A stretch of DNA of 64,000 nt, taken from Diplonema japonicum. Its lineage: Eukaryota > Protista > Euglenozoa: Diplonemea. The stretch covers positions 186,001 to 250,000 of the forward strand of contig OZ025724.1 of the NCBI GenBank assembly GCA_964019335.1, read 5' to 3'. Every line of letters starts with the position of its first letter. Position 1 is the first letter of the stretch. The notes under the pieces are model-generated. The model was not told the origin of the DNA. It worked only from the letters and a program-made list of their open reading frames with translations, and made no database searches. The position numbers and the translations under genes were made by a program. Shown here one piece after another: positions 10,347 to 56,347 of this stretch.

Positions 10347-11990
10347 TCAGAACCCCTTATCATCCTTTGTTGTGGGGAAGATCTGCCCCACGGAGAGATT
10401 GACATCGTTAGGTGTGATCATGAGCTGGTTGCTCCCCTTGGAGAGGTGCTCTACAGAGTCAAGCTTCCTGAGCATGAGGAACATCTTGATCGCCTTGTCG
10501 AGGTCCATGGTGGCAGTGTCCTTCCCTGTGGTCTTCTCCATGAAGGCGACGAGCTTCATGGCCTCTGCCTCTCCCTCGATCCGCGCCTCCGTCTTCAGGT
10601 GGGACTTCTTCAACTCGATGAGCTCCTTCTTCATCTTCTCCTCCTCGATCTCTCCCCCGAGCCTGCTCAGAGCAACCTCGTTCTCACCCTTCTGCCTCTC
10701 CTTCTTCTTCAGCCTGTCCGCTGTCTCCTTGATGATGTCCTGCAGGATCGCATCAGTCTCACTCGAGGCACACTTGAAGCGCAGCACCTCCACCGAGATG
10801 AGGTCCACCCCCCTCTCCTCGTAGAAGGGGTCGTCGATGCACGCCCCGCGGATGATCTCGTTGAACTTCTCCAGGAAATCCAGCAGCTTGATCCTCGACA
10901 CCTCTTGGATGATCTTTGAACGGGCGTGTGTGCACGTGTCCCCAGGGGCATCTGCCGTCTTCTCCACCAACATCGGGACGTCGATGATGGACCAGAAGAA
11001 CGACACGTCCACACACAGCTCCACGTTGTCCACTGTCCTGCAGTTGAACTCGTAGTTCATGTACGACGGGCGCCTGTCGAACTTCCACACAAGGTCCACA
11101 GAGGTGTGCTCCTTCCGCAGGTCTGTCGACCACTCTTGCTTCACGATCTCACAGAAGGGTGGGAGGAAGAAGTTCCTCAGTTCCGAATCCCCTCGCGCGT
11201 AGATGAACTTCCCTGTCTTGTCCTTGTACACCACTGTCTGGTACTCCTCAAGGATGATCTTCTCCTGCACCTCCACGATCTCTTGGTACTTCGAGGGGAT
11301 GAACAGCCCCAGCTGCGAGATCTGCACAAGGCTTCCCGTGTCGGTGTTCCGCACCAGAACACAGTGGTGCTCGTCGACGTTCACCCCGCACTGCACCCCG
11401 CCTATCACCTCCTCCAAGGGGTCTGGAACCACACGCTGCTCCCCGACTTCGATCCTCAGCTTGCCCTCCTGGTCCTTGATCCGCAGGTACTCATTCTTTG
11501 CAAGGTTGTACACCTGTAGTGGTGGTGGTGGTGGGTCGTGGTGGCCATACCTTCTTGTAGGAAGAAATCTCATCATAAGGCCCAGGCTTGAACAGGCTTG
11601 GGCCCACAATGTTCTTCACTGTACCGTTCTCACCTGTTGTGTTTATTTTTTACAGTTTGCCGCTGCTGCTGCTGTTGTGCTGTGTTGTCCCATACCATCA
11701 GTGATAGTGATGTACTGCTGCGCCGTCAGGTTTGGGCAGGTCCCAGAGTGCACCACAGCCTCACGCTCGTTCATCCACACAACGCTTGGCCCGTAGAACG
11801 ACTTCTTCGACCCGAATTCGTCGTTCATCACAATGGAGTACTCCCCGGTCCCGAGCACCAGAGCCCCACGGGACTCCGTGCTGCTGCATGGCCCGTAGCA
11901 CATGACCCCGGGGCCGTTCTCCACCGACCTCTCCCCATTGCACGAGGTGATCAGCAGCTGCTCGTTTTCCTCAAGGCACGAAAAGCACAT
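10347..11990 (-). CDS. Major-vault-protein-like/SPFH (band 7) protein, copy C; exons 11990-11696, 11633-11551, 11513-10347 (514 aa)
   Basis: Introns 11634-11695 and 11514-11550 (GTATG..CAG) restore one frame. N-terminal GP-containing beta repeats, SPFH-like core (CRTVDNVELCVDVSFFWSI..GVDLISVEV), C-terminal coiled coil. Confidence 0.75.
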
Positions 11991-14722: not shown

Positions 14723-16346
14723 TCAGAACCCCTTATCATCCTTTGTTGTGGGGAAGATCTGCCCCACGGAGAGATTGACATCGTTAGGTGTGATCATGAG
14801 CTGGTTGCTCCCCTTGGAGAGGTGCTCTACAGAGTCAAGCTTCCTGAGCATGAGGAACATCTTGATCGCCTTGTCGAGGTCCATGGTGGCAGTGTCCTTC
14901 CCTGTGGTCTTCTCCATGAAGGCGACGAGCTTCATGGCCTCTGCCTCTCCCTCGATCCGCGCCTCCGTCTTCAGGTGGGACTTCTTCAACTCGATGAGCT
15001 CCTTCTTCATCTTCTCCTCCTCGATCTCTCCCCCGAGCCTGCTCAGAGCAACCTCGTTCTCACCCTTCTGCCTCTCCTTCTTCTTCAGCCTGTCCGCTGT
15101 CTCCTTGATGATGTCCTGCAGGATCGCATCAGTCTCACTCGAGGCACACTTGAAGCGCAGCACCTCCACCGAGATGAGGTCCACCCCCCTCTCCTCGTAG
15201 AAGGGGTCGTCGATGCACGCCCCGCGGATGATCTCGTTGAACTTCTCCAGGAAATCCAGCAGCTTGATCCTCGACACCTCTTGGATGATCTTTGAACGGG
15301 CGTGTGTGCACGTGTCCCCAGGGGCATCTGCCGTCTTCTCCACCAACATCGGGACGTCGATGATGGACCAGAAGAACGACACGTCCACACACAGCTCCAC
15401 GTTGTCCACTGTCCTGCAGTTGAACTCGTAGTTCATGTACGACGGGCGCCTGTCGAACTTCCACACAAGGTCCACAGAGGTGTGCTCCTTCCGCAGGTCT
15501 GTCGACCACTCTTGCTTCACGATCTCACAGAAGGGTGGGAGGAAGAAGTTCCTCAGTTCCGAATCCCCTCGCGCGTAGATGAACTTCCCTGTCTTGTCCT
15601 TGTACACCACTGTCTGGTACTCCTCAAGGATGATCTTCTCCTGCACCTCCACGATCTCTTGGTACTTCGAGGGGATGAACAGCCCCAGCTGCGAGATCTG
15701 CACAAGGCTTCCCGTGTCGGTGTTCCGCACCAGAACACAGTGGTGCTCGTCGACGTTCACCCCGCACTGCACCCCGCCTATCACCTCCTCCAAGGGGTCT
15801 GGAACCACACGCTGCTCCCCGACTTCGATCCTCAGCTTGCCCTCCTGGTCCTTGATCCGCAGGTACTCATTCTTTGCAAGGTTGTACACCTGTAGTGGTG
15901 GTGGTGGTGGGTCGTGGTGGCCATACCTTCTTGTAGGGAGAAATCTCATCATAAGGCCCAGGCTTGAACAGGCTTGGGCCCACAATGTTCTTCACTGTAC
16001 CGTTCTCACCTGTTGTGTTTATTTTTACAGTTTGCCGCTGCCGCTGCATACCATCAGTGATAGTGATGTACTGCTGCGCCGTCAGGTTTGGGCAGGTCCC
16101 AGAGTGCACCACAGCCTCACGCTCGTTCATCCACACAACGCTTGGCCCGTAGAACGACTTCTTCGACCCGAATTCGTCGTTCATCACAATGGAGTACTCC
16201 CCGGTCCCGAGCACCAGAGCCCCACGGGACTCCGTGCTGCTGCATGGCCCGTAGCACATGACCCCGGGGCCGTTCTCCACCGACCTCTCCCCATTGCACG
16301 AGGTGATCAGCAGCTGCTCGTTTTCCTCAAGGCACGAAAAGCACAT
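14723..16346 (-). CDS. MVP-like/SPFH protein, copy A; exons 16346-16052, 16009-15927, 15889-14723 (514 aa)
   Basis: Introns 16010-16051 (42 nt) and 15890-15926 (37 nt). Exons are near-identical to copy C, 4376 bp away. Confidence 0.75.
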
Positions 16347-21260: not shown

Positions 21261-22195
21261 TGGTTTTCCCCTCCCTTTTTTTTTTTTTTTTTTTTTTTTT
21301 TTCTCTTTTTTTTTTTTTGTGCTTGCATGTTATGAGGAAGAGTGTGAAAGGAAGACAAAAAGGGAGAAAAAAAAAGTATCGGAAAAAAAAAAAAAGAAAA
21401 AAAAAAAAAAAAGGAACTAAAAGTATCAAGATACGATTTTTTTTTTTTTTTTTTTTTTTCCCTCCCTCCTTCCCGCAATAACTCCGGACGAACGAACCCT
21501 TGAAAGGAGGGGAACGGAAATTTATAAAAAAGAAGAAGAAAAAAAAAGGTTTATAAAAATAAAAAAGAAAGACCCTCGCACTGCACGCAGATAGGCTCAG
21601 GTCATCAACAAAGTCCCCTGGGCTCCACAGCTCAGCTGAAAACAAAAAGGCTTTTTGTAACGACTCTTATCGCTTCATTTTTCATCGTTTTTTTTTTTTT
21701 TTTTTTTTTTCTCGCTCGCAAAGATTTTTTTAAAAATATAAAACCCGTAGAGGCCTTTAAAAAAAGAAATTCACTATGATAGGAACAAAGTGGTTAGCCG
21801 CCGCAGTGTCCCAAAAAAAAAAAAAAAAAAAAGAATAGGCGAGAAGTTAATTATTCTTTTTTGCGCGCGATGGTTACAATTTTTTTCTTCCCTAAAGCCG
21901 AAAAAGAGAAAACGCGTAAAAAAACGCATAAAAATCGCAGCCCAACATTTTTTTTTTTGTTGATGACTACAATTAAACAAGTGCTTTTTTTTTTTTTCTT
22001 TCTTTTTTTTTCTTCTGTTCCATAAAAAAAAGGGGGAGGGATAAGGGGGAAGAAGAAAAAAAAAAAAAAAAAAAACCCTCCTTTTTTTTTTTTTCTTTTT
22101 TTCCTTCCTGCGCACATCCCTGAAGCAACACTAAAAAAAAAAAAAAAACTATTCTTTTAAGGTATGCGTTTTTGCGCTCACCGGCCGCGCTGCGC

Positions 22196-25100
22196 TTAGT
22201 CCCCGTTGTCCCCGTTCTGGGGGCTCTGGCGGGTTCCTACTGCGGTGGTCATGCTGCGGGGCAGCCTTGTCGGTGTCTGCGACAGGTACCTGTCCCGCAA
22301 GCCTTCGATGCTACTCATGGTTCGTTCCGGGAGTACTGGCCTCCTGTCATACCCGTGTGTGGTCGGTCCTCCGATACAGCGTAGGGAGTTGACGCGCTCC
22401 ACTCGCGCCGCTGGGAACGCTACCCCTCTGCCATCAGCGTGGTACAGGTCCTGGACTCGTCTCAGCACATACCGTAGCCTCCTTGCCTTGACGCCCAGGT
22501 CCTCCACCTTGCCCACTTCCCCGCCGTCGTCCAGCGGCAGCTCCATCTCCCGCTCGAAGTCGAGGGCCAGCTCTAACGTCGTCACCGCCGTGTGCCGACC
22601 AGGCGCGTCATCCCACAGCAGGCCTCCCAACCACCTCAGCACCGGCCTCAGCAGCTTGTCCATCACCGTTCCTGACGCCCCCAGCCTTCGTAGTTCAGAC
22701 ACCGCCGGCGTCGGGTGCGCCCTCCCCGTCACGACCGCCCGCCACGGGTAAGCTTGTGTCTGCAGTGCGCGGTTCGCTTCCACCGCTGCATCCCTCCGCG
22801 TGACTACCTCCAGCAGGTACTTCTGCACCAGTAAGGCCCTTGGCTTGTCTTGGCAGCCTCTGGGCACCACCCCATGGAGCCTCGTCGCCTTCGGCATAGC
22901 TGCCGGGTCCAGGTTCGCGTACTCCACCTTGCTCTGCACCGCGACACCCGGCTCGCATCGCCAGAGGGCGTGCTCCAGCACCTCCGTGTAGCTGCCGAAC
23001 CGTTCCTCACACACGTCGCAGAGGTGCTGCAGCGGGTTGTTCGGTTCCTGCGCCACGCCCCGCGCTCCCGGGTAGACCGCAAACACCGCTCCTGCAATCA
23101 GCCTCCTCAGTCGGTACGCCGCCACTGGGTTGCCCGAGAGTGACCTCCACCACACGTTCGTGTCCGGGTCGGCTCCCTCCGGCATGCCGTCGTAGGAGTC
23201 CCTCCCTTCTGCTAGCTCGGCTGCCGTCATGGCCCTCGCCACCCGCCGGATCTCGTGCTTGCGCTCGCGTTCCGGCATGGCACCCAGCCCCACCACGAAA
23301 TTCCAGCCTTTCCCGATCGCCGGCAGCCATCTTCTCATCAGGGTCCCCACTGGCCCCAGGGCTTCAATATCGCACTCCCGGTACAGGGCGGCACACCTCC
23401 CCATCCGGTCCCACAGCTCCGTATCCGACCCGCCTACCTTCACCACTGTGCACAGCAGTCGGTAAAGTGTCACCACCAGCGGGTCCGTCGTGTGCCCTGG
23501 CAGCAAGACGTTCGCAACAGCACACGGCGAGCGCATCTTGAACTTCGGTCCCCAGAGGCACGTCGCAACACTCGCTCGGATTGTACCCGCATCCATTTTC
23601 GAGGGGGGTGCATAGGCAACACCGTAGAGGCAGGAGGGGAGAATGGAGCTGGTGAGGATCCTCGCCTTCTGTGTGAACCCCAGCGGCATGGCGGCCAGTC
23701 TCCCGCAAGCGCGTCCCATCGCCTCAAGGGGCTTCGCCCTGTGCTCGCCGTCCATACATACCCGGACTCCCAGGACGTTGATCTCCTTTTTGGCCGTGAA
23801 CACCTCACGTCCGCACTTCACCGTTCCGTGTTCTGCCGTTGTGAACAGGTCTGTCTTCCTCAGGTTGAGGTTCATCCCTGTCAGCAGAGAGAACTCGCAC
23901 ACCCCCGCTGCCGCCTTCTCCAGGGCGCTGAGCAGAGCTGCTATCAAGTAGACGTCGTCCGCGTATGACAGGGAATCAGCGCCGGGCACCTCCGCCATGA
24001 TGGCCTTCACCATCACCCCTACCAGCGCGTTCACCATCACCACCGAGATCGGGCACCCCTGCAGGATGCCGTTCGACGTAGCAAATTCGTCACCCACCCC
24101 TGTCGGGTATTTGAACCTCCGTCTGAGGGATTCGTACATCGTCTCCAGAGGGCGCAGTATGTTCTGATGCAGTCCCAGGTCCCCCACTAGCCCGAGCGCC
24201 ACTTCCCGCGGGATTCGGTCGAAGCACTTGACAAAGTCTAGCGCGAGCCCGTGCATCGGCGTTCCCGATAGCAGAGCTTCTTCGAGCTGCGTCGTCAGTT
24301 CCAGCAGTAGCGTGTCCGTACCCCTCCTCGACCTAAACCCATGTTGTGACGCGTCCGCCCACGACTCCTGCCAGACCAAGATGCGTCTCATCCTCGTTGT
24401 CGCCCACAGCCTGTACACGGCGCTGGTGACGGTGATCGGGCGGTGGTCCAACGGGGCTCTGCCCTCGCCTTTCGGGATCAGAGAGACAAGCGCTGTCAAT
24501 AGCGCCTCCGGCCACTTGCCGGTCTCCTCGACGATGTTGAAGAGCTGCGCCCACCTCTCGAGCAGCGCGTCAGGTATAGCCTTCAGTTCCGTGATCCTCC
24601 AGCCGTCGACGCCTGGGGTGCCCCTCGCAGGTCTGCTGTTTAACACCTCCCTGAGGTCGCCCCCCGTGATCGGCTCCAGTTCCATGGGGTGTTTATCGAT
24701 ATACCCGCCATACCTCTCTTTGAAAGCAGCGTAGGAAGGTCGGTCACTTTTGTCCGGGTACAGGTGGAAGACGGAGGCCCATGCCCCCCTCATCAGCGCG
24801 TCTATCTCCCCCAGATCTACCGTCAGCCTGCCGTCCTCCTTCGCGACTGCCAATGTGTGAACATCCTTGTCACCTCTAACGTAAGCTACGATCCTCCGCC
24901 TGTCGTCACGGAAATCAGCTGCCACCCGTTTCCTATAACTTGCCTCGTTCTCCAGGCGTTGCCGCATCACCGTGTCTCTGTCAGCCTGCTCCGCCGCAGC
25001 CTCCAGCTCCCGCAGTCCCACCAGCGCAGCCCCCAGGCTAGCCCCCCGTAGCAGGTCCTTGTCCGGCACGACCCCAAGGTGCATCTTCTCGGCCAGCTTA

Positions 25101-26329
25101 ACGATGTTCCGCCACGTCCCGTGCAGCATCGCTGGCAGCGTCCCCGGCCCACCACGCAGCAGTGCCTCGTTCAGCCCCGTCCTGAGCGCCACGATTTTCC
25201 TCCTGAGGCTGCCGTGCATCGTCTGGCCTCGTGCGGCAGCTCCCCCTGACGTCCCCGTCGACTTCGCTGCTACCATCTTCTCCGTCAGCTCTCGCGGCTC
25301 TCCTCTGCCTACGTACGACCTCACCTCCGTCACTCCGGCTGAGCTCAGCATATAGCGTTCGGTAGCGCAGCTCAGCAAGGCGTAGAGGCCCCCCACGTCC
25401 CTGGCGTCAACTGCTTGGTGGATTGCGTCGTCGCCGGCAAGCCCTTGGTCAAGATCAGCGTCGGGCGTCACCGCTCCCACCGGTAGCTCCTTCGGGAGGA
25501 AGAAACGTTTCGTCCGCTTCTTGAGCGTCGGCGTGAAGAGCTCAACGGACAGACACAGGTGCTCCCCGGTCCGCACCCTCTTGTGTGTCCAGAAGCGTTT
25601 CAGCGCTCCGGCAGCCACCGCGTTGGCCAGGACGAAGTCTATCCGCGTCTTCGTCTCCGTCCCGGGTCGTTCGAAGGTGTGGTCCGGTTCCCGTCCGTCC
25701 TTCTCGGCCTGAAGCGCCCCGACGTCGACCCAGTCGTTTTCCACCGCGTGTTTCAGCGTCGCTGACCCGGAAACGTCCGTGTTCAGATCCCCTAAGACCA
25801 GGATCGGCACCTCCCCGAGTTTAGCCCTCAGTTCAACGAGCAGCGAGTGTAGGAGTCGTTCCCTGTCAGCCTTCCCGTAGTGGCCGGCGCTGCAGTACAC
25901 CGTGATGACGTGGACCCATAGATCGCGGCCATCCACATTTATCATAGTGTGCAGCCACCTGTTCGGCTGCACTGTGATCCCCGATACTGGAGCCACGATG
26001 GCCGGCCTGCCTTTCTTCGTCAGCACAGCGACGCCCCCCCTTTGCCCAAGGTTTGGATTGAGTACCCCTGCCCTGTCCGGCGTGCCATCCTGAGCGCGAC
26101 CCCACAGGGGGTGATACCCGCCTTCATCAACAGCTTGCGACAGTTGGCGTTGACCGTGCTCAGTGAGTTTGGTCTCCTGCAGGCAGATCACCTCATCCTG
26201 CGTTGCTAGGACCTGCGGGAGCTTGTTGTGCAGGGACCCGACATTCACCGATGTGATCCGGAGCACGTCATCGAGCAGAGGTGGGCCACTAGCGCTTCCT
26301 CCACTCATCCCTGCCACAAGCTGTAATTG
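22196..26329 (-). CDS. Retrotransposon ORF2: APE endonuclease, reverse transcriptase, C-terminal CCHC knuckle
   Basis: APE: NVGSL, LQET, GDLNT, RIDFVL, GEH. RT: PGVDG, RPIT, QHGFR, DFVKCFD, GILQGCPIS, YADD. CDVC..EHALWRC. Open from the codon right after the ORF1 stop, in the same frame; first ATG at 26308. Confidence 0.95.
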   Translation of the reverse strand, partial: QLQLVAGMSGGSASGPPLLDDVLRITSVNVGSLHNKLPQVLATQDEVICLQETKLTEHGQRQLSQAVDEGGYHPLWGRAQDGTPDRAGVLNPNLGQRGGVAVLTKKGRPAIVAPVSGITVQPNRWLHTMINVDGRDLWVHVITVYCSAGHYGKADRERLLHSLLVELRAKLGEVPILVLGDLNTDVSGSATLKHAVENDWVDVGALQAEKDGREPDHTFERPGTETKTRIDFVLANAVAAGALKRFWTHKRVRTGEHLCLSVELFTPTLKKRTKRFFLPKELPVGAVTPDADLDQGLAGDDAIHQAVDARDVGGLYALLSCATERYMLSSAGVTEVRSYVGRGEPRELTEKMVAAKSTGTSGGAAARGQTMHGSLRRKIVALRTGLNEALLRGGPGTLPAMLHGTWRNIVKLAEKMHLGVVPDKDLLRGASLGAALVGLRELEAAAEQADRDTVMRQRLENEASYRKRVAADFRDDRRRIVAYVRGDKDVHTLAVAKEDGRLTVDLGEIDALMRGAWASVFHLYPDKSDRPSYAAFKERYGGYIDKHPMELEPITGGDLREVLNSRPARGTPGVDGWRITELKAIPDALLERWAQLFNIVEETGKWPEALLTALVSLIPKGEGRAPLDHRPITVTSAVYRLWATTRMRRILVWQESWADASQHGFRSRRGTDTLLLELTTQLEEALLSGTPMHGLALDFVKCFDRIPREVALGLVGDLGLHQNILRPLETMYESLRRRFKYPTGVGDEFATSNGILQGCPISVVMVNALVGVMVKAIMAEVPGADSLSYADDVYLIAALLSALEKAAAGVCEFSLLTGMNLNLRKTDLFTTAEHGTVKCGREVFTAKKEINVLGVRVCMDGEHRAKPLEAMGRACGRLAAMPLGFTQKARILTSSILPSCLYGVAYAPPSKMDAGTIRASVATCLWGPKFKMRSPCAVANVLLPGHTTDPLVVTLYRLLCTVVKVGGSDTELWDRMGRCAALYRECDIEALGPVGTLMRRWLPAIGKGWNFVVGLGAMPERERKHEIRRVARAMTAAELAEGRDSYDGMPEGADPDTNVWWRSLSGNPVAAYRLRRLIAGAVFAVYPGARGVAQEPNNPLQHLCDVCEERFGSYTEVLEHALWRCEPGVAVQSKVEYANLDPAAMPKATRLHGVVPRGCQDKPRALLVQKYLLEVVTRRDAAVEANRALQTQAYPWRAVVTGRAHPTPAVSELRRLGASGTVMDKLLRPVLRWLGGLLWDDAPGRHTAVTTLELALDFEREMELPLDDGGEVGKVEDLGVKARRLRYVLRRVQDLYHADGRGVAFPAARVERVNSLRCIGGPTTHGYDRRPVLPERTMSSIEGLRDRYLSQTPTRLPRSMTTAVGTRQSPQNGDNGD

Positions 26330-26335
26330 CTATTG
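26321..26335 (-). promoter_or_regulatory. Stop-codon readthrough signal CAA-TAG-CAA-TTA-CAG
   Basis: Minus strand reads (CAA)5 TAG CAA TTA CAG CTT GTG; fits the UAG-CAR-YYA consensus and separates two in-frame ORFs. Confidence 0.85.
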
Positions 26336-28624
26336 TTGTTGTTGTTGCACCGGCCCTTGGGGCAGCAGTAGCGGGGTGGCCGGGTGCTGTGGGTCGACCT
26401 GCATCTGTCCCGTTGGTGTGCTAGCGGTGGATCTCGTGCCGGACTTCGAGACCTTCCCGCCCTTTTCCTCACCTCCTGCCGTCCTCTTCCGACTAGCACT
26501 GCTCGTCAACGCCACCGCCGCCAACTCGGCAAGCTGTTGTTCCACGTCCATCAAACGCATTTGCGTGCTCTCCTGCGCCTTCTGCATCCGAGTGATCTTT
26601 GCCAGGGCCTCTCGTAGTGCCTGCGCCATCGCCTGCTGGTCCGCCTGCCTCCTCTCCTGCTCGAGTCGAAGCTTCGCCATCGTCTCCTCGTGTCGGCGGT
26701 CCTTTTCGGCGTACTCGGCCTCCTTGGACTGCCACCACGAGTGGAACGATTGCTCGGCTCCCTCACTCCGCGTCGGACGCTTGGCAGGTCGAGGTTGTGC
26801 GGCGGGCCGCAGGGGTGGGAAGTCGCTCGTCTTGTTCTTGGTCGCAGGTGGAGGGGGAGGCTTATGTGCTGGCTTCTTTGCCCCACACTTGCTCCCCCAC
26901 GTGGAGTGCTTCAGGAGGTCTCCTTCCGCACCGTGCGGCCGGATCAGCCACTGCTCGTCGCCGCTCTCGAACATGAGGCCTGGTGGATCAGCCTCCGACG
27001 CTACCAGCCATGTGCAGGTTTTTCTGCCACTCGCCAGTACGCGCACCGCTTGTGCTGCCCACCCGATCGCGCGCAGCCTCTGCTCCACCACCAGCCCCGG
27101 GACCTGCGTTCCCATCCCCTTGACCGTGAAGGGGGCCCCCTTGATCGGCACCGGACGGCGGTCCTTCACCTTCTTCGCGGTCCTGTTGTGGAGGAAGGCC
27201 ACCATTTCTTCTAGTCGTTCTGCTTTCACGCGGATCCCGTACTCTCCCGTGCCCTTGCTCCATGCCACCCCCAGCCCGTCTGCCTGCTTTGCGAGGAGAG
27301 CGGCGTCAGTCGCCGAGGCGCCTTCGATCCACAGAACGGGAAATTTGCTCGTCGATTGGTGTGGGGGACGTACATAGACTCCACCGGTCCCACTGTGTCG
27401 GTACAGGGTCTCCAGGTCCGCTCGGGCAACTACCATGCACAGCTCGGCGCAGCCGTCCCTCTTCGATCCCGTCCTCGGCTCGACCCGCGCCGTGCACTTG
27501 CTCGCGGCCCAGCGAACGAGGTCCCTCCTTGCGTCGTGGTAGTCCTTCTTGGTCCTCTCCACCAAGTAGACCTCGGCAGCACAGCTCTCGACCGCGGGGA
27601 CTACCACCGTCTTCTTGACCTGCTTCAGGGGTGCGCCGCCCTTCGCCGTCACCCACAGCCTGCGCACACACCTGCCCTTGCCGCCGTCGGTCGCCAGCAC
27701 CACCTGCTCCAGTACTCCCGGCATCGTGGGGAGTTTGGCCCTGGACACCAAGGTGGGTCCTTCCTTGTCGTCTGCGTCCATCAGCCACAGGGACGCCACC
27801 TTTTCCATACCTGCAGGGACGAGCAGGACCGATCTGTTCCTGCCCACCTGCGGCGTCCAGTCGCCGGAGAATGCCTCCCAGCCGTCACTCACCAGCACCG
27901 CGTCGTCTTTCGTCGTTGCCTCGTTGTCACCGTCCTCGGCGTCCTTCGTTTCCTTAGCCTTTCGGGCTGCTGCCGCTCTCCTCTTCGCGCTCTCGCTCAG
28001 GAAGGGCATGGGCACCTTCGGGTTGTTGTAGGTGCCTGCTGCCGGGAGCGTTGTGCCCTCACGCACCGACAGCGCCACGTAATGGGCGGCAGCGAACCCC
28101 AGGTATATGGGGGTGCTCTCTACCGCGTTGCGCGAGGGGAAGGAGGTGCACAACAGCTCCCCGTCCTTCACCTGGTAGCAGGCCAGGTGGCGCCGGCACA
28201 CCACGCTGAGCGCGAGGAGCTGCAGGATGTCCCCCCACGCTCCGTCCTTCACTGCTTGCACATATTCCCCGTAGCGCTCGGGGGCATACAGCAGTGCACT
28301 GTTGTCGGTTGATGCCAGGTGGCTAGCCACCAGCTCCCTCAAGGCCGATCCAGCAGAGGTGCCCTGATGGATCGCTACTGATGTCGCCTCGTAGAGGCAG
28401 TCCCCCTCCGTCTTGGAGAAGTCTCTGATCGAGAACCCTTCTCCCAGCTTCGCCTGAAGCTCCGCCTTCGCCTTGCCCACCTCGCTTCCCGTTCCCGTCC
28501 CGCGGCCGGAGCCTTCGCCGCTACCACCACCCCCCATGTGGCAGCGTTGCCCGGGGTTCAACCTCGAGGAGGTCGCTCCCACCGCGCTGGACGTCGATGA
28601 TAGTGTTGGTGTTGATGTTGCCAT
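26330..28624 (-). CDS. Retrotransposon ORF1: N-terminal OTU-like cysteine protease and C-terminal coiled coil (764 aa)
   Basis: EGDCLYEA (Cys76), LRELVASHL, AWGDILQLLALS, IYLGFAAAHYVAL (His181). Heptad-like region EETMAKLRLEQ...LAELAA near the C-terminus. Confidence 0.85.
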   Translation of the reverse strand: MATSTPTLSSTSSAVGATSSRLNPGQRCHMGGGGSGEGSGRGTGTGSEVGKAKAELQAKLGEGFSIRDFSKTEGDCLYEATSVAIHQGTSAGSALRELVASHLASTDNSALLYAPERYGEYVQAVKDGAWGDILQLLALSVVCRRHLACYQVKDGELLCTSFPSRNAVESTPIYLGFAAAHYVALSVREGTTLPAAGTYNNPKVPMPFLSESAKRRAAAARKAKETKDAEDGDNEATTKDDAVLVSDGWEAFSGDWTPQVGRNRSVLLVPAGMEKVASLWLMDADDKEGPTLVSRAKLPTMPGVLEQVVLATDGGKGRCVRRLWVTAKGGAPLKQVKKTVVVPAVESCAAEVYLVERTKKDYHDARRDLVRWAASKCTARVEPRTGSKRDGCAELCMVVARADLETLYRHSGTGGVYVRPPHQSTSKFPVLWIEGASATDAALLAKQADGLGVAWSKGTGEYGIRVKAERLEEMVAFLHNRTAKKVKDRRPVPIKGAPFTVKGMGTQVPGLVVEQRLRAIGWAAQAVRVLASGRKTCTWLVASEADPPGLMFESGDEQWLIRPHGAEGDLLKHSTWGSKCGAKKPAHKPPPPPATKNKTSDFPPLRPAAQPRPAKRPTRSEGAEQSFHSWWQSKEAEYAEKDRRHEETMAKLRLEQERRQADQQAMAQALREALAKITRMQKAQESTQMRLMDVEQQLAELAAVALTSSASRKRTAGGEEKGGKVSKSGTRSTASTPTGQMQVDPQHPATPLLLPQGPVQQQQQ

Positions 28625-28689
28625 AATGTTTCTTTTAACCCAAATTCAGAACCCCTGAAAAACGTTCTTTTTTTTTTTTTTTTTTTTTT

Positions 28690-41503: not shown

Positions 41504-42865
41504 TCACGGCTTGGGGTGAAGACAGGTAGGGTTACAACTCCTGTCACTAACTTCACCAGTATTGTAACTGCAAGGGTCGTAATGATTGAGATAGGCTGGT
41601 GTGCTCAAGGGCTGGTGCCACCACGCGCCAACAGCTTCTTGAATGGAGGTACCGTTTATTCTGAAGCCCATGAACTCCTCGTCATCCTGTGCTTCGCAAT
41701 GGGTGTGGCACGAATGGATGAAGGCACCATTCCCGTTCTTGTTGTAAGAACTTTCAGGAAACATGTCCGCCTTGAAGTCGGCGATGTACTTGTTCATCGT
41801 CACCATCTGTGTCGAGTTGCAATCGTTGGGGTGTTCAACGCAGTTCTGCCAGGGGCTGATTGAATTGCAATTATCGTTCGCGGTACCGTTCTGATTGGGA
41901 AACCCGGGCGCGACCTGACCCGCATAGATACACTCAATTTGGAACAGGTCGTATGCTGAATTAACAGCAAAGAAAGGAGCCTTGATGTGGGGATAAGTGT
42001 ACTGTGCGAAATTACACTTCCACTGCTCGTCTGCAGGGTACGCCGCGATGCACGCATCGTTCACGCCGAAGGTACTGTTCGCAATTTCAAAAATACTCCG
42101 GATCTGTGATTCATAAGCCGGGACACCGATCAGGTTCTTATGATCCAAGAAGAACCCCGACAATGCAGCTGACTTGAACACGTTCATAGAAGGAGCATTC
42201 GTTTGCAGCCATTTGTGAACGATATCCACATGGATGTAAGTGGACAATCCACCGGCAGAACACCCTGTTAAAAAGACTTTATTTGCGTTGGTAATGCCCA
42301 ACGGAAGGAGGGATTCAAGCACAGCATCGATGATGCGACGCCCACGGAAGTACAGAGGCTTACCCTTCACAACGAGGGGTTCGTCACGGTTCCCCGTGAA
42401 GCTGTTCCCGTCGCAGTACGCGAGGTACACTCTGTTGAAGTTGCAGAAATCGGGGTTCACTGTGCAGTTGTCCGACATTATGCCTTTCACTTTCATGGTG
42501 GAAGGCCATTGAGCTGAACTGCCAAGGGCAGAGAAGGACCTTCCGTAGCACCCCATGGCATCGTAGCACCACCCGCCCCCTTCAAAATATATCTGCCAGT
42601 CGTTTGTATTGTTGGGGTTTGCGGCTGGTGTGTAGTAGAACCCTGCTGGTGTGCCGTCCATGCAGACTGCTCCGTTTGCTACCTTGTCGTTCATCAGGTG
42701 CAGCTGCATTGCATTCCCAAGAAGGCCCGGACCGAACTCCACCCCCTTGAAGTCTGCATCGAAGACCCCTGCTCCTTTCCATTCCGGTGCATACCTCATC
42801 TCGCCTGCCGCGAAACGGGTGCTCATCGCTATAAATGCGAGAAATGGTTTTAAAATGTACTTCAT
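41504..42865 (-). CDS. Pectin acetylesterase/Notum-family esterase, copy 1 (453 aa)
   Basis: CMDGTPAGFY, FEGGGWC, YCDG, GCSAGG, HCE; signal peptide MKYILK. Confidence 0.9.
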   Translation of the reverse strand: MKYILKPFLAFIAMSTRFAAGEMRYAPEWKGAGVFDADFKGVEFGPGLLGNAMQLHLMNDKVANGAVCMDGTPAGFYYTPAANPNNTNDWQIYFEGGGWCYDAMGCYGRSFSALGSSAQWPSTMKVKGIMSDNCTVNPDFCNFNRVYLAYCDGNSFTGNRDEPLVVKGKPLYFRGRRIIDAVLESLLPLGITNANKVFLTGCSAGGLSTYIHVDIVHKWLQTNAPSMNVFKSAALSGFFLDHKNLIGVPAYESQIRSIFEIANSTFGVNDACIAAYPADEQWKCNFAQYTYPHIKAPFFAVNSAYDLFQIECIYAGQVAPGFPNQNGTANDNCNSISPWQNCVEHPNDCNSTQMVTMNKYIADFKADMFPESSYNKNGNGAFIHSCHTHCEAQDDEEFMGFRINGTSIQEAVGAWWHQPLSTPAYLNHYDPCSYNTGEVSDRSCNPTCLHPKP

Positions 42866-43736
42866 TTCTTTTTTTTTTTTCCCCCTGAATTTTTTTTTTT
42901 TTGGCCCCAGTTGGTAGATTAACAGATTGTTTTCAAAAATAAGAAAAAAAAAATAAAAAAAAACGTGTGGGGCAATAGGGTGTAAAGAAACGAAAACAGA
43001 TCTTACTTGTTTTATATATGAGTCTGTCCGGAAAGAAATGTGAACAAATGACCCTCTTTTGCAACGGAATACCCTCGGAAGATTTATAAAGTACAAAAGT
43101 AGTCCGACACCACTTTGTGTGCAGAATTGCAGTCTAAGCTTGAACACCACTTAGGTCACAACGCGCGCCGTTTGTTTCATTTCTAAAACGCGCGCGTGCA
43201 AAACATGCTTTTAGAATGGTTTCTTTTTGGTTTTTGGCATTCGGAAATTGTAAAAAACGACTCTGGTTGTACCCAGGGTCACAAGTGTGTATGTGCACCA
43301 CTTTTATGCACCCTAGGTGCTGTATTTCAAGCAATATTTTAAACATTCTTTTCCCGACCTCTGTTCTTCGCTTCCCGGGGGCAACCGGTTGCAAAGCCTG
43401 CCACCCTCATGATCGCAATTGAAAGAACTGCGGCAGGTACACCATATATGTCATCTTCCTATGGTTGCATGCTGCCCTTTTTTTTTTTTTTTTTGCTCAA
43501 AAAATCAAAACAAATGATTTTCGAACTGCCAGTTTTTTCTTTTTCTTTTTTCATTCTTTTTTCTTTTCTTTATTCACTTTGTAAACGTTAGCCAGATATA
43601 CAAAAACACGTCACACCACGTTCACCCATCACCAACAGGTGGCCCGTTCCACAGTATATGTTACAAGAGCATCGCGCTCCTTTCAAAGTTACGGCCGCAA
43701 TAGAAGACCGTTCGTAGATTGATTTTCAATACCACT

Positions 43737-45026
43737 TTACGTATGCAGGCGAGTGGCTAGAGGGGCGGGGTGAAGGCACGTGGGGTTGCATGCCCGTGGC
43801 CCTTCCTCTCCGGTATTGTACAAGCAAGGGTCGTAGTTGTTCTCCCAAGCGGGTACTTTATCACTGAACCACCACTTGCTGACCGCATCCCGCATCGTCA
43901 CATTGCGCACCTTGAAGCCAATCCAATCAGGGTCATGGATACCCTCGACATGTGTGTGGCACGAGTGGATGAAAGCGCCGTTCCCGTTCTTCCTGTAAGT
44001 CTCAGGGGCCGTGAGGTCCGCCATGAAGTCGGTGATGTACTTGTTCATCCTGACCATCTGTGTCGAGGTGCAGTTCTCAGGGTTCGCAACGCATGCTTTC
44101 CAGCCATCGATCGCGTTGCAGTCTCCGTTCAGGGTCGATGTTTGATACGGGAAACCAGGTACCAGCTCAGAACCCAGTACACACCCTGTCTGCCATTGAT
44201 CGTATGCTGAGTTGATCACCATCACAGGGGCCTCCAGATGGGGGTAGGTGTACTGGGCGAAGTTGCACTTCCACTTCTCCCCCGGAAGCTGTGCCGCGAT
44301 GCACGCATCGTTCACACCGTGCGTGCTGTTTGAAATCTCGAAGATGTTCTTAATTTCCCGCTCGAACACATGCTTCCCTTGAAGTGTCTGGTGGTTAAGG
44401 AAGAATCCGGAGTAAGGAAGGACCTTGAACACCTTCAGGTTTGGTGCCCGCTCCTTCAGGAAGTTGTAGATGTGGTCTGCCTGAAGGATGGCCGCAAGAC
44501 CCCCAGCCGAGCCCCCCGAAAGGAGAACCTTCTCGGCATCCCACAGCCCGATCACCCGTAAGGTATTTAGCATTGCGTCCAAGATGCGACGCCCACGGAA
44601 GTACAGAGGCTTCCCCTTCACGTAGAGGGGTTCGTCACGGTTTCCTGCCCAGCTGTTCCCGTCGCAGTAGGCTACAAAGATGGTGTTGTACAAGCAGAAG
44701 TCGGGGTTCACTGTGCAGTTCGGGGACATGAGACCACCCCCGCCGCCCGCTGTTTCTGTCCAGTTCACAGAGCTCCCCAATATTGTCTGCGTCCTCCCGT
44801 AGCAGTCCATGTCGTCGTAGCACCACCCTCCTCCTTCGAACGAGATCTGCCAGTTGTGTCTGTTCTCCAGACTCGTTGTGATCGAGTAGTAGAACCCTGC
44901 GGGCGATCCGTCCAGGCACACTGCCCCTTCATCAGCATATTCTTCCATCAGGTACAGTCGCATCGCCCCAGGGTGGCGTGTCAAACCGAGTGCTGCAATG
45001 CAATGCAAAAGTAGCCCAACTTGCAT
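43737..45026 (-). CDS. Pectin acetylesterase-like, copy 2 (429 aa)
   Basis: CLDGS, FEGGGWC, GGSAGG, YDQWQ, HVE. Confidence 0.9.
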   Translation of the reverse strand: MQVGLLLHCIAALGLTRHPGAMRLYLMEEYADEGAVCLDGSPAGFYYSITTSLENRHNWQISFEGGGWCYDDMDCYGRTQTILGSSVNWTETAGGGGGLMSPNCTVNPDFCLYNTIFVAYCDGNSWAGNRDEPLYVKGKPLYFRGRRILDAMLNTLRVIGLWDAEKVLLSGGSAGGLAAILQADHIYNFLKERAPNLKVFKVLPYSGFFLNHQTLQGKHVFEREIKNIFEISNSTHGVNDACIAAQLPGEKWKCNFAQYTYPHLEAPVMVINSAYDQWQTGCVLGSELVPGFPYQTSTLNGDCNAIDGWKACVANPENCTSTQMVRMNKYITDFMADLTAPETYRKNGNGAFIHSCHTHVEGIHDPDWIGFKVRNVTMRDAVSKWWFSDKVPAWENNYDPCLYNTGEEGPRACNPTCLHPAPLATRLHT

Positions 45027-45221
45027 TTTATTTATTTTGTTTGGCCGGTCGGCCTGAGAAGATGGAAGAGACTAGGTACAGAAAGAAAATATATGAGACA
45101 AGAGGGCAACCCCTCTCCCTTTACACTTACTTCACTCTGCTGGGAAACAATAAAAAAAAAAAAAATCGCTTTGATTGGGACGTTGGTAATAACAGAAATG
45201 AACTAAAATAATGCAATATTC

Positions 45222-46499
45222 TTAAAATGGGTGAGAGCCCAGAGGGGGGGGGTGAAGACACGTGGGGTTGCAGTCCCGTGGCCCCTTCTCTCCGGTTTTG
45301 TACAAGCAAGGGTCGTAGTTGTTCTCCCAAGAAGGAGTGTCAGTCTCATACCACCACTTGCTGACCGCATCCCGCATCGTCACATTGCGCACCGTGAAGC
45401 CTTCCCACAAGGGATCGATAATGCCTTCAACATGTGTGTGGCACGAGTGGATGAAAGCGCCGTTCCCGTTCTTCCTGTAAGTCTCCGGGGCCGTGAGGTC
45501 CGCCATGAAGTCAGTGATGTACTCGTTCATCCTGACCATCTGTGTCGAGGTGCAGTTGTCGGGGTTCGCAACGCACTCTTTCCAGCCATCGATCGCGTTG
45601 CAGTCTCCGTTCAGGGTCGATGTCTGGTCAGGGAAACCAGGTACCAGCTTAGAACCCATCACGCACCCTGTCTGCCATTGATCGTATGCTGAGTTGATCA
45701 CCATCACAGGGAAGTCCAGATGGGGGTAGGTGTACTGGGCGAAGTTGCACTTCCACTGCTCCCCCGGAAGCTGTGCTGCGGTGCACGCATCGTTCACACC
45801 GTGCGTGCTGTTTGAAATCTCGAAGATGTTCTTAATTTCCCGTTCGTACACCCGTTCGCCATGGATGTTTTTGTGGTTCAAGAAAAACCCCGAAACAGGG
45901 GCAACCTTGAACACCTTCAGGTTTGGTGCCCGCTCCTTCAGGAAGTTGTAGATGTGGTCTGCCTGAAGGATGGCCGCAAGACCCCCAGCCGAGCTTCCGG
46001 AGATGAGAACTTTTTCAGCATTCCAAAACCCAATTATTTTCAAGGTGTTTAGCATTGCGTCCAAGATGCGACGCCCACGGAAGTACAGAGGCTTACCCTT
46101 CACGTAGAGGGGTTCATCACGGTTTCCTGCCCAGCTGTTCCCGTCGCAGTAGGTGACGAAAATAGTGTTGAACAAGCAGAAGTCAGGGTTTATTGTGCAG
46201 TTCGGGGACATGAGACCACCCCCGCCGCCCGCTGTTTCTGTCCAGTTCACAGAGCTCCCCAATATTGTCTGTGACCTCCCGTAGCAGTCCATGTCGTCGT
46301 AGCACCACCCTCCTCCTTCGAACGAGATCTGCCAGTTGTGTCTGTTCTCCAGACTCGTTGTGATCGAGTAGTAGAACCCTGCGGGCGATCCGTCCAGGCA
46401 CACTGCTCCTTCATCGACAGAATCCTCCATCAGGTGCAGTCGCATCGCTCCAGGGTGGCGTGTCACACCGAGTGCTGCAATGCAAAGGAGCGTTTGCAT
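45222..46499 (-). CDS. Pectin acetylesterase-like, copy 3 (425 aa)
   Basis: FEGGGWC, GSSAGG, YDQWQ, HVE. Confidence 0.9.
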   Translation of the reverse strand: MQTLLCIAALGVTRHPGAMRLHLMEDSVDEGAVCLDGSPAGFYYSITTSLENRHNWQISFEGGGWCYDDMDCYGRSQTILGSSVNWTETAGGGGGLMSPNCTINPDFCLFNTIFVTYCDGNSWAGNRDEPLYVKGKPLYFRGRRILDAMLNTLKIIGFWNAEKVLISGSSAGGLAAILQADHIYNFLKERAPNLKVFKVAPVSGFFLNHKNIHGERVYEREIKNIFEISNSTHGVNDACTAAQLPGEQWKCNFAQYTYPHLDFPVMVINSAYDQWQTGCVMGSKLVPGFPDQTSTLNGDCNAIDGWKECVANPDNCTSTQMVRMNEYITDFMADLTAPETYRKNGNGAFIHSCHTHVEGIIDPLWEGFTVRNVTMRDAVSKWWYETDTPSWENNYDPCLYKTGEKGPRDCNPTCLHPPPLGSHPF

Positions 46500-47491
46500 T
46501 TTCTTTTATCCTATTCACTCAAATAATAAAGTATTGTCATATTTTTCTTTCTATAACAAGGGAGAGGGGAGGGGAGGGGGGAGACAGGCAAACCATGCTG
46601 GAAAGCAAAAATAAAATAGTAATTTTCTCCCGCTGAGACTTTTTTTTTTCTCGGCGATATTAAATCCGAGAGGCCAGCATGAGCAGGTGGTGACTACGTT
46701 CTCCTTTATCAAGTGCTCGTGGTTCGTGAGAGTTTAAATGTAGTCTATCATCAAACTCTGGCCAGGCTCCGCATCCCACTGGGTGGCGGGATCCGTTTCA
46801 TCTTCTCTTCCTTCTTCCTCAATACCCTCATCCTTGCGCCTTTCTTTAGCGATCCCATCTCATTCAAACACTCTTCTAGAGTTTCAAGTGCGCAGCTCTC
46901 TCAAAAGAGAGGTCAGCCATTGCTGTGACGTGATTGGCTGTCGTGTCCTTTACACATTTGATCTTCTCATTTTTCAGCCCCCTCCAAAATCGTGATTCCT
47001 GTGAAATCTGTGTATATTCAGAGTTTTGTATACCCCCCCCCCCAGTGTGAGGCCCCCCCCCCCCCCCCCCCCCCCCGTGTGAGGCGGATCCTCACACTAA
47101 AAATAAAGGACCTCTTTATATCTGGGCACTGAGCCTAACTCGGGGGCTCAGGGGATTAACTCCTGATGTTAATTGATTTGGGGAAAAAATAAAAGAAATT
47201 CGAGTTTCAGTGTGGAGTGCTCTCTAAGCAAGGTGATGGGCAGCATCAACTACAAGGAAATAATAATAATCACAATAAAAGAGTAAAGAGCAAAAAAAAG
47301 GAAAAAAGAATAACTATTTATTTAGTGAAAATAAGATCGTATGATTTTCACGCGTGGTGGCAGTGGTTTAACGAGTGGGTATATGACTTCACGAGCGAAG
47401 TGAGTGAAGTAACATCAACGAGTTAAACATGCCACCACAAGTGAAAATCGGATCTATTTCACTAAACCCGTTGTTTTATTTAACGTCAGTC

Positions 47492-47749
47492 AGATTTGAA
47501 AGGGTGGGGTATTACAGGTTACAAGTTACAAGCTACAAATTCTACTGGGGTGCATTTGCGCCCCCCGACCCCTTGCTGTGCAGTGAAAATAGGGCAAGCG
47601 TGAATATAAAGTACTTTATATTCACTCATAAAGTAATTTTCATTTCTGCCCCTGTTTTCTTCCTAAAACAAGCCTGAAATCTGCCGTGAAAATAAAGTGA
47701 AGCGTGAAATAATGTGAAATATTATATTCACTCCCACCCTTGAAAATCT
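47492..47749. mobile_element. Possible MITE with imperfect 17-bp inverted ends
   Basis: agatttgaaagggtggg (47492) versus reverse complement of cccacccttgaaaatct (to 47749), 2 mismatches; internal gtgaaa(t/a) repeats. Confidence 0.35.
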
Positions 47750-47981
47750 AACTGGAGTTATATAAAAAAAAGAAAAATTCGATGTAAACTCCGAGAGAGC
47801 CGCAGGAGGGGTATGGACCGTACTTGGTAGTTTTCAGTTTCGGACATATCTCACGACTCTTCTAGGTGGCGCCCCAGATGGTAGGAGAGTACTGTACACA
47901 CAAAAAAGAAAAGAATAGACGTTATTTGTTCCGCTGCTGGGGAAGCCCTCTTCCACCCAATAAAATATGAAAAGGGAGCTT

Positions 47982-49313
47982 CTAAGCTGCAATGCAGGAA
48001 GGGTTGCAGTCCCTGGGGCCCGTGGAGCCTGTCTTGTACTCACAAGGGACGTAGTTGTTCGGAGCAGCAGGTGAGGTGCTGCTGTGCTGGTGCCACCACT
48101 TGCTGACAGCATCACGCATTGAAACACCCCTTACTTTGAAACCCACATAATAATTGCTGTTCTGCGCCTCGCAGTGAGTGTGGCACGAGTGGATGAAGGC
48201 GCCGTTCCCGTTCTTGTTGTACGTGCCGGCAGACTGCATGTCCGCCTTGAAGTCGGTGATGTACTTGTTCATCGTCACCATCTGTGTCGAGTTGCAGTTG
48301 TCAGGGTTCTCTTGGCAGCTCTGCCACGGCCCGAGTGCATTGCAGTCACCGTTCCCTGTCGACGTCTGGTTGGGGAAGCCAGGCTCCAGCTCTGAGGTGT
48401 AGATACATTTTGTCTGCCACGAGTCGTACCCGGAGTTAAGTGCGAGAAAAGGAGCCTGGATGTGGGGGTAGGTGTACTGGGCGAAGTTGCACTTCCACTG
48501 CTCGTCCGCAGGGTACGCCGCGATGCACGCATCGTTCACGCCGTGCGTGCTGTTCGCAATTTGGAAGATGTTCTTCATCTGTGCCTCGTACACAGGCTGG
48601 CCGAGAATGTTCTGATGATTCAGGAAAAAGCCCGAGATCGATGCTGCCTTGAAGGCGTCCAGAGTAGGGACGTTCGTCTTCAGCCACTGGTGCACGTAGT
48701 CAGTGTGGAGGTAGGTGGCGAGCCCACCAGCCGAGCACCCTGTGAGGAAAACATCTTCAGCATCCTTGAGCCCCATTGGCATGAGGGACTCAAGTACAGC
48801 ATCGATGATGCGACGCCCACGGAAGTACAGAGGCTTCCCCTTCACAACGAGGGGTTCGTCACGGTTCCCCGTGAAGCTGTTCCCATCGCAGTAGGCAATG
48901 TACACTCTGTGGAAGTTGCAGAAGTCTGGGTTCACCGTGCAGTCACTGGACATGATGCCGCCTGCCCCGACAGAGGTGTGCCATCCCTTCGAGCTGCCGA
49001 GGGCGGTGCTTGATCTCCCGTAGCAGTCCATGTCGTCGTAGCACCACCCTCCTCCTTCGAAGTAGATCTCCCAGGAGTGTGCAGCGCTAGAATTGGTCGG
49101 CCCAGAGTAGTAGAACCCTGCGGGCGTTCCGTCCAAGCACACCGCTCCGTTGGCCACCTGGTCCTTCATCAGGTGCAACTGCATCGCGCCCTTCAAGTTG
49201 TCCCCGAACTCGATGCCGTTGAAGTCAGCATCGTAAACCCCAGCACCCTTCGATGCAGGGGCGTACTTTGCGGCACACACCACCGCGAAGCTGAGCAGAT
49301 ACCCTGCTTTCAT
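47982..49313 (-). CDS. Pectin acetylesterase-like, copy 4 (443 aa)
   Basis: GCSAGG, YDSWQ, HCE; signal peptide. Confidence 0.9.
   Translation of the reverse strand: MKAGYLLSFAVVCAAKYAPASKGAGVYDADFNGIEFGDNLKGAMQLHLMKDQVANGAVCLDGTPAGFYYSGPTNSSAAHSWEIYFEGGGWCYDDMDCYGRSSTALGSSKGWHTSVGAGGIMSSDCTVNPDFCNFHRVYIAYCDGNSFTGNRDEPLVVKGKPLYFRGRRIIDAVLESLMPMGLKDAEDVFLTGCSAGGLATYLHTDYVHQWLKTNVPTLDAFKAASISGFFLNHQNILGQPVYEAQMKNIFQIANSTHGVNDACIAAYPADEQWKCNFAQYTYPHIQAPFLALNSGYDSWQTKCIYTSELEPGFPNQTSTGNGDCNALGPWQSCQENPDNCNSTQMVTMNKYITDFKADMQSAGTYNKNGNGAFIHSCHTHCEAQNSNYYVGFKVRGVSMRDAVSKWWHQHSSTSPAAPNNYVPCEYKTGSTGPRDCNPSCIAA

Positions 49314-56314: not shown

Positions 56315-56347
<33 letters not shown>

What the first reader, a model, noticed from the sequence alone, without database searches (positions are those of the whole stretch)
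26306..26347. LINE ORF1 and ORF2 fused by a tobamovirus-type leaky stop (CAA-UAG-CAA-UUA-CAG)
Seen: the ORF1 stop (26330-26332) is in frame with ORF2 and there is no other stop from 28624 to 22196 (2143 codons). The context is (CAA)5-TAG-CAA-TTA-CAG. Established: UAG-CAR-YYA with a 5' CAA is the readthrough signal of the TMV replicase, and some LTR elements and gammaretroviruses express gag-pol by readthrough, whereas characterised LINEs (L1, SART1) use reinitiation or coupling. Inference: the element makes abundant ORF1p plus a small fraction of a 2142-aa OTU-ORF1-APE-RT polyprotein, a virus-like way to set stoichiometry. I do not know of this in non-LTR elements. An in-frame ATG at 26308 leaves reinitiation possible.
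Basis: partly seen in the sequence, partly recalled or inferred. Interest (0 to 1): 0.92.

Follow-up and report, generated by a model that had tools for sequence, protein, structure and literature searches.

The report
Protist LINE with virus-type leaky stop
A jumping gene (LINE), likely from a marine diplonemid protist, has its two genes in one reading frame split by a single stop codon whose neighbouring letters match the leaky stop of tobacco mosaic virus and which is followed by a predicted RNA stem, so its copying enzyme is likely made when ribosomes occasionally read through that stop.

Summary
Confirmed: a 6.5-kb LINE has ORF1 (764 aa; OTU, RRM-like, coiled coil) and ORF2 (APE-RT) in one frame across (CAA)5-TAG-CAA-TTA. 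TAG is a true host stop. The stop is not private: a 96%-identical Diplonema japonicum transcript protein ends at the same residue, and two sister families also break just before APE. The codon pair after the stop is the only in-frame CAR-YYA of 2141 pairs. New here: a predicted 14-bp helix, the longest in the element, starts 6 nt after the stop, where viral readthrough stems start. Against: the in-frame ATG 7 codons on aligns with the M(S)GG starts of both sister families, so reinitiation or trans-splicing stays open; no junction DNA from another copy or sister family was obtained; more distant relatives use 2A-like peptides or fusions, none TAG-CARYYA. Readthrough about 0.6, own ORF2 start about 0.3. 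Readthrough was already proposed for Paramecium Group 3 LINEs, so this is a new variant (type I signal plus stem), untested by experiment.

The parts
22161..28629 (-). APE-type non-LTR retrotransposon, apparently intact, no poly(A) tail seen, inserted just after the stop of a host gene
   Evidence: ends set by the candidate target-site duplication
28630..28638 (-). candidate 9-bp target-site duplication TTAAAAGAA, 5' copy
   Evidence: longest shared word between the two flanks; A-rich, so chance is possible
22152..22160 (-). candidate target-site duplication, 3' copy
26333..28624 (-). ORF1, 764 aa: OTU domain, RRM-like core, coiled coil, tail ending in five Gln
28064..28492 (-). OTU cysteine-protease domain (aa 45-187), Cys76 and His181 present
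   Evidence: Pfam PF02338 E 8e-8; alignment; fold matches OTUD5/OTUD1
26930..27580 (-). ORF1 core (aa ~349-565), predicted tandem RRM-like folds; homologues in Diplonema papillatum and unnamed records
   Evidence: Foldseek hits to Prp24, SFPQ/NONO, Raver1 RRMs at E 3e-5 to 9e-4 with low TM-scores
26477..26758 (-). predicted long helix / coiled coil (aa 623-716)
26333..26347 (-). (CAA)5 run; gives AA just before the stop
26330..26332 (-). ORF1 stop TAG, in frame with ORF2
   Evidence: transcript protein P0005 ends at the same residue
26324..26329 (-). CAA-TTA, type I (tobamovirus) readthrough hexamer
   Evidence: consensus in PMC3542737 section 14
26311..26324 (-). 5' arm (+6 to +19) of predicted stem after the stop
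26130..26143 (-). 3' arm A (+187 to +200), 14 contiguous pairs (2 G-U) with the 5' arm
26220..26237 (-). alternative 3' arm B (about +93 to +110) for the same 5' arm
26306..26308 (-). in-frame ATG (+22 to +24), start of MSGG; inside the loop of the predicted stem
   Evidence: sister families start MSGG and MGG
22196..26329 (-). ORF2, 1377 codons: APE (25619-26248), RT (23759-24475), C-terminal region; no RNase H found by Pfam
26361..26522 (-). second strong predicted helix (13 bp, arms 26510-26522 and 26361-26373) ending 31 nt before the stop; role unknown

Best explanation
ORF1 and ORF2 of this LINE lie in one frame across a single UAG, and ORF2 is likely made by programmed readthrough: most ribosomes would stop and release the 764-aa OTU/RNA-binding ORF1 protein, while a small share would insert an amino acid at UAG, helped by AA before the stop, CAA-UUA after it and a predicted stem starting 6-8 nt downstream, giving a 2142-aa ORF1-APE-RT protein. 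Shown: frame, context, domains, TAG as a host stop, rarity of the hexamer and helix within the element, a transcript protein ending at the same residue. Inferred: that ribosomes read through, at what rate, that the stem forms, and that the fusion is the active form (it may be cut afterwards).
For: Exact type I context A-UAG-CAA-UUA (PMC3542737 section 14); only in-frame CAR-YYA of 2141 pairs; TTA is rare in element and host. 14-bp contiguous helix from +6: longest and with fewest G-U pairs of the 6 helices of 12 bp or more in the element (span up to 250 nt); 2 of 2053 codon positions reach 14 bp, both this same helix; 1 of 2000 synonymous recodings reaches it; +8 to +19 is paired with probability 0.7-1.0 at all 9 context lengths tried. 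Viral readthrough stems start about 8 nt after the stop, and benyvirus combines UAG-CAA-UUA with a stem. The ATG lies behind the 5' arm. Stop is family-level: P0005 (D. japonicum transcript, 733 of 761 aligned residues identical) ends VQQQQQ; sister ORF2s P0029 and P0030/P0101 are predicted as separate proteins. N-terminal fusion to APE is tolerated in the clade: 5 of 28 distinct proteins with a full APE start are OTU-APE fusions and 3 of 28 carry the ORF1 core before APE (two of the three are gene models that may be spliced). Precedent: Paramecium Group 3.
Against: The in-frame ATG aligns with the predicted first Met of both sister families (MSGG, MGG); Met is 2.2% of residues, so this is unlikely to be chance and fits a real start. 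No junction DNA of another copy or sister family was obtained, so conservation of TAG-CARYYA and of the stem is untested. None of 11 loci (of 86 fetched) with an APE start has a stop-CARYYA at the junction; 8 of them show 2A-like motifs, and 11 of 28 proteins carry 2A-like motifs, a route that frees the APE N-terminus rather than fusing it. A downstream structure also serves reinitiation in SART1. The type I signal has not been tested on diplonemid ribosomes in anything I read.
Confidence: 0.6

Rival explanations
1. Termination-reinitiation: ribosomes stop at UAG and a fraction restarts at the AUG 21 nt on, giving a free 1370-aa ORF2 protein, as in L1 and SART1; the frame and hexamer are by-products of a CAA-rich spacer and the stem assists coupling.
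For: M(S)GG start shared by the three families of the subclade (SH-aLRT 98); relatives with 2A also free the APE N-terminus; L1 and SART1 mechanisms (PMC5972666 passages; PMC3894237).
Against: Does not explain the exact hexamer with a rare TTA codon; the stem lies between stop and AUG rather than after the AUG; reinitiation after a long ORF is held improbable without special signals. Predicted proteins always begin with Met, so the sisters' starts are also what an ORF caller gives after a nearby in-frame stop.
Confidence: 0.22
2. ORF2 gets its own mRNA by spliced-leader trans-splicing at an AG in the junction (TAG, TTACAG or GCAG), so no recoding is needed.
For: Essentially all D. papillatum mRNAs carry a spliced leader (PMC10161547 passages); three AG dinucleotides lie within 25 nt before the ATG; the transcript isoform giving P0005 has ORF1 as its first-ranked ORF and no ORF2 of this family turned up in two searches.
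Against: Only 2-6 T and 12-13 pyrimidines in the 30 nt before these AGs, unlike T-run acceptors seen before some host genes; an ORF2-only mRNA would separate ORF2p from the full-length RNA it must copy (inference). The acceptor consensus of this host was not determined.
Confidence: 0.09
3. The ancestor was one ORF with a Gln-rich linker; a CAG/CAA-to-TAG change fixed in the family or this copy, and hexamer and stem are coincidence.
For: The stop sits in a Gln run; P0009 has an ORF1 core fused to APE through a Gln-rich linker.
Against: P0005 differs at 28 of 761 aligned positions, nearly all N-terminal, yet ends at the same residue; ORF2 is otherwise unbroken over 1377 codons; both sister families also break before APE.
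Confidence: 0.07
4. TAG is a sense codon in this host, or the stop is an assembly error.
For: None found.
Against: A host pectin-acetylesterase-family gene ends at TAG (47982) about where its 86%-identical paralogue ends at TAA; 17 host ORFs hold 292 Gln codons and end at plausible C-termini; an independent transcript protein ends at the same place.
Confidence: 0.02

Closest known systems
Type I viral readthrough: tobamovirus replicase; benyvirus and pomovirus coat-protein extension (PMC3542737, section 14 read)
   Same: A-UAG-CAA-UUA letter for letter; polymerase downstream; benyvirus also lists a stem-loop after the same hexamer.
   Different: Here in a nuclear LINE of a protist; stem is long-range (170-nt loop) like alphavirus type II stems; an in-frame AUG follows; nothing measured.
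Paramecium tetraurelia non-LTR Group 3 (PMC5405496, passages)
   Same: APE-RT LINE with ORF1 and ORF2 in one frame; readthrough of the ORF1 stop proposed from sequence.
   Different: Ciliate clade; the passages seen give no type I signal or stem and no experiment. Its supplement was not read here.
L1 and SART1 ORF2 translation (PMC5972666 passages; PMC3894237 parts 1-2 of 3)
   Same: Two-ORF APE LINE, ORF1 with RRM-like and coiled-coil parts, AUG near the ORF1 stop; human L1 ORF2p is among the nearest solved proteins (E 1e-16).
   Different: L1 has a 63-nt spacer, SART1 an overlapping UAAUG with structure downstream of the restart; neither has a leaky-stop signal.
2A-bearing LINEs: L1Tc, Ingi, CR1, L2, Rex1, Crack (PMC3708506 passages)
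   Same: Recoding just before APE; many relatives of this element carry such motifs.
   Different: This element and its two sister families have no NPGP before APE; a stop stands there instead.
SymbioLINE-Dnmt of Symbiodinium (PMC5890265 passages)
   Same: Two-ORF LINE with TSD and no poly(A) tail, accessory enzyme in ORF1; an unnamed 1535-aa protein (P0013) that by eye resembles such an ORF1 shares the ORF1 core.
   Different: Accessory domain is OTU, not a methyltransferase; no RNase H found here; junction mechanism not discussed in the passages seen.

Membership tests
APE-type non-LTR retrotransposon (LINE) | APE followed by RT in ORF2 | tested here: met
   PF03372 E 2.5e-10, PF00078 E 1.2e-17
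APE-type non-LTR retrotransposon (LINE) | upstream ORF1 with RNA-binding fold and coiled coil | tested here: met
   model pLDDT 70-90 over the core, RRM-protein hits, 94-residue helix; prediction only
APE-type non-LTR retrotransposon (LINE) | target-site duplication, 3' tail | tested here: inconclusive
   9-bp A-rich candidate, no poly(A) or repeat tail; empty site not available
APE-type non-LTR retrotransposon (LINE) | placement in a named clade (L1, Ingi, RTE ...) | not tested
   tree of 40 RT rows holds no named reference elements (quick tree)
Type I (tobamovirus-like) readthrough site | UAG followed by CAR-YYA, in frame with downstream ORF | tested here: met
Type I (tobamovirus-like) readthrough site | adenosines just before the stop | tested here: met
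   CAA before TAG
Type I (tobamovirus-like) readthrough site | signal conserved among relatives | tested here: inconclusive
   no DNA for close relatives; absent in 11 of 11 distant loci with an APE start
Type I (tobamovirus-like) readthrough site | measured readthrough dependent on the hexamer | not testable with these tools
   needs reporter, ribosome profiling or mass spectrometry
Stem-stimulated readthrough (type II/III geometry) | RNA structure starting about 8 nt after the stop | tested here: met
   predicted helix from +6/+8; no covariation test possible
Termination-reinitiation LINE (L1, SART1) | AUG at or shortly after the ORF1 stop, kept in relatives | tested here: met
   ATG at +22; M(S)GG in 2 of 2 sister families
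Termination-reinitiation LINE (L1, SART1) | overlapping stop-start with structure downstream of it (SART1) | tested here: not met
   21-nt spacer; 5' arm lies before the AUG
2A/StopGo LINE | GD(V/I)ExNPGP before APE | tested here: not met
   absent in the window and in P0029, P0030
OTU cysteine protease | OTU fold with catalytic Cys and His | tested here: met
   Cys76, His181; the residue two after His is Val; activity untested
Host with TAG reassigned to an amino acid | TAG not used as stop in host genes | tested here: not met

The most novel reading that the evidence does not exclude
This LINE runs a full RNA-virus expression plan: leaky UAG plus stem makes an ORF1-APE-RT polyprotein, and its own OTU protease then cuts at the Gly-Gly motif kept before APE in all three sister families (MSGG|S, MSGG|A, MGG|A) to free the polymerase; across the clade, 2A skipping, direct fusion and leaky stop are swapped as interchangeable switches at the same point before APE.
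Probability: 0.12. Interest if true: 0.82.

Novelty: new variant of a known kind. Interest (0 to 1): 0.52.

Why it matters
How LINEs translate ORF2 is called an open question in the reviews read, and readthrough in a LINE has, in what I could search, only been proposed from sequence. This junction carries a well-defined viral signal plus a predicted stem and a rival AUG, so three point mutants in one reporter would decide the mechanism. It would extend type I readthrough to a nuclear retrotransposon and to euglenozoan ribosomes, and it sits in a clade whose members use 2A-like peptides or fusions at the same spot.

Tried and rejected
No genome is held for this window and no read data were obtained, so copy number, the share of copies with TAG and RNA ends are unknown. 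Search for a longer, fused form of ORF1: none among 7988 candidates (weak evidence). First ORF2 search drew words from the first 500 residues and found 2 proteins; the RT-region search found 72. Locus scans: 0 in viral contigs, 80 of 86 kept in metagenomes, 6 in prokaryote genome bins; none is from the window's subclade. ESM Atlas did not answer. The careful tree did not finish; the quick tree is used. Gly-Gly before APE as an OTU site: present in only 1 of 5 direct OTU-APE fusions, so kept only as the novel case. ORF1 proteins ending in K, Q or E (codons that can end in AA): 3 of 4 relatives (P0007, P0027, P0013; not P0012), too few to use. Reading LVAGMSGGSASGPP as a decayed 2A: by eye only, not testable. 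Earlier-findings look-ups by sequence, genome and four word sets found nothing on this element. Supplement searches of PMC10161547 (7 files held) gave nothing on LINE structure or splice acceptors; its Additional file 1, which covers repeats and trans-splicing, may not be among the files searched and could bear on the trans-splicing rival.
Full report
Observation. On the minus strand an ATG at 28624 opens 764 codons, TAG stands at 26332-26330, and 1377 further codons run in the same frame to TAA at 22196. The context is (CAA)5-TAG-CAA-TTA-CAG-CTT-GTG-GCA-GGG-ATG. Pfam finds OTU in ORF1 and APE plus RT in ORF2. A model of ORF1 from a 10-row alignment (mean pLDDT 63, confident over the OTU, aa ~350-565 and a helix at 623-716) matches OTU deubiquitinases and tandem-RRM proteins. 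A 9-bp A-rich word flanks the element as a candidate target-site duplication.

Host and code. The best ORF1 hit among 12 is P0005, labelled a Diplonema japonicum transcript protein in EukProt, 733 of 761 aligned residues identical; the neighbouring host gene is also in EukProt. The host is therefore likely this diplonemid. TAG is a stop here: a host gene ends at TAG about where its 86% paralogue ends at TAA.

Is the stop private? Probably not. P0005 differs mainly in its first 180 residues and ends at the same five Gln; the ORF-type field of its name was cut off, so that it ends at a stop is inferred. In a quick RT tree of 40 rows the element groups with two D. japonicum families, P0029 and P0030/P0101 (SH-aLRT 98; 47 and 46% identity over ORF2). 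Both are predicted as complete proteins that start 9-13 residues before APE, with MGG and MSGG, so they too lack a continuous ORF1-ORF2 frame, or have transcripts that start there.

Is the context more than chance? The hexamer matches the type I consensus and the tobamovirus and benyvirus entries letter for letter (PMC3542737, passages and section 14 read). It is the only in-frame CAR-YYA of 2141 codon pairs; composition gives 1.3e-3 to 2.5e-3. If the stop arose in a CAA run, CAA-TAG-CAA is free and only YYA counts (1 of 72 Gln codons has it). TTA is the rarest Leu codon in D. papillatum (PMC10161547, passages).

A second signal. Folding puts a stem right after a short spacer. Bases +6 to +19 pair with +187 to +200 in 14 contiguous pairs, or with about +93 to +110 in shorter contexts; +8 to +19 stays paired at all 9 lengths tried. 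It is the longest of 6 helices of 12 bp or more in the element; by energy only one other helix equals it, and that one ends 31 nt before the stop; 1 of 2000 synonymous recodings reaches it. Weaker results: z -1.41 at 153 nt; z -2.96 at a length chosen afterwards, with 5 of 211 windows lower; duplex rank 122 of 2053. The position fits readthrough stimulators, which begin about 8 nt after the stop.

The case against. The ATG at 26308 aligns with the first Met of both sister families. That fits a real start (reinitiation, or a trans-spliced ORF2 mRNA in an organism that trans-splices nearly all mRNAs), though ORF callers give a Met start after any nearby stop. No T-rich tract precedes the junction AGs. 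Further out the clade uses other junctions: of 145 proteins held, 28 distinct ones keep the APE start; 11 have a 2A-like motif before it, 5 are OTU-APE fusions, 3 carry the ORF1 core before APE, 9 have none of these. Of 86 DNA loci, 11 keep the APE start; none has a stop-CARYYA at the junction and 8 show 2A-like motifs. These are 25-39% identical and outside the subclade, so they neither confirm nor refute conservation. Two loci have ORF1-like frames joined in frame by one stop before APE (L002 TGA-CTG, L030 TAG-GGA).

Mechanism. Most likely (0.6): most ribosomes end at UAG and yield ORF1p; a minority reads through, helped by AA, CAA-UUA and the stem, and yields a 2142-aa ORF1-APE-RT protein, which sets a high ORF1p:ORF2p ratio. 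Rivals: reinitiation at the ATG (0.22), trans-splicing (0.09), fixed nonsense change (0.07), code or assembly (0.02). Readthrough and use of the ATG need not exclude each other.

Comparison with what is known. It is a LINE by domain test; no named clade was tested. L1 and SART1 use reinitiation (PMC5972666 passages; PMC3894237 parts 1-2 of 3; PMC5009743 passages); several clades use 2A (PMC3708506 passages). Readthrough of the ORF1 stop was proposed from consensus sequences for Paramecium Group 3 (PMC5405496 passages), and earlier AI notes of this scan list several other LINEs with in-frame stops, mostly UGA-C (unchecked leads). Five full-text searches listed no paper on a type I UAG-CARYYA signal in a LINE or on this family; the search for OTU in non-LTR elements listed none in its top 15 of 600. 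The library lacks most subscription journals. That viral OTU-like proteases cut polyproteins after Gly-Gly is recalled, not from a call.

Verdict. Real feature, new variant of a known kind, interest 0.52: a clean and cheaply testable candidate for readthrough in a LINE, with one copy, one transcript protein and no conservation test behind it.

Noticed in passing
L030:1435-1437: Distant LINE with a 431-codon ORF1 and 1149-codon ORF2 in one frame across TAG-GGA (type III-like UAG-GGR); first Met is 75 codons on, inside APE; no strong helix found.
   Followed up: partly
L002:1091-1093: Clade relative with 244 open codons ending in a Cys-rich motif, then in-frame TGA-CTG, then 2463 codons with a 2A-like motif before APE; GC-rich, so the open frame may be chance.
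   Followed up: partly
P0032, P0033, P0035, P0042, P0043, P0062, P0068, P0069, P0118; L001, L007, L010, L011, L081, L082: 2A-like motifs before APE are common in this diplonemid-rich LINE clade, with variants such as GIHPNPGP, GDIHPHPGP and GEAxNPGP.
   Followed up: partly
P0083 aa ~160-185; P0058 aa ~135-145: LRGG and IRGG (ubiquitin-tail-like) motifs just before APE in P0083, and LQGG after an OTU domain in P0058; possible protease sites.
   Followed up: no
window 26361-26522: Second-strongest helix of the element (13 bp) closes 31 nt before the stop, so the two best helices flank the junction.
   Followed up: no
window 41504-58541: Tandem array of at least 8 related pectin-acetylesterase-family genes on the minus strand (4 of 4 scanned hit PF03283; BLAST links 8).
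   Followed up: no
window 10347-11615 and 14723-15991: Two near-identical SPFH/Band 7 genes 4376 bases apart.
   Followed up: no
window 59729-64000: Intronless 1424-codon C-terminal part of a protein that by eye resembles a ferlin (C2-like stretches, terminal membrane anchor); not scanned.
   Followed up: no
L081-L086: Six eukaryotic LINE fragments of this clade sit in prokaryote genome bins, likely contamination.
   Followed up: no
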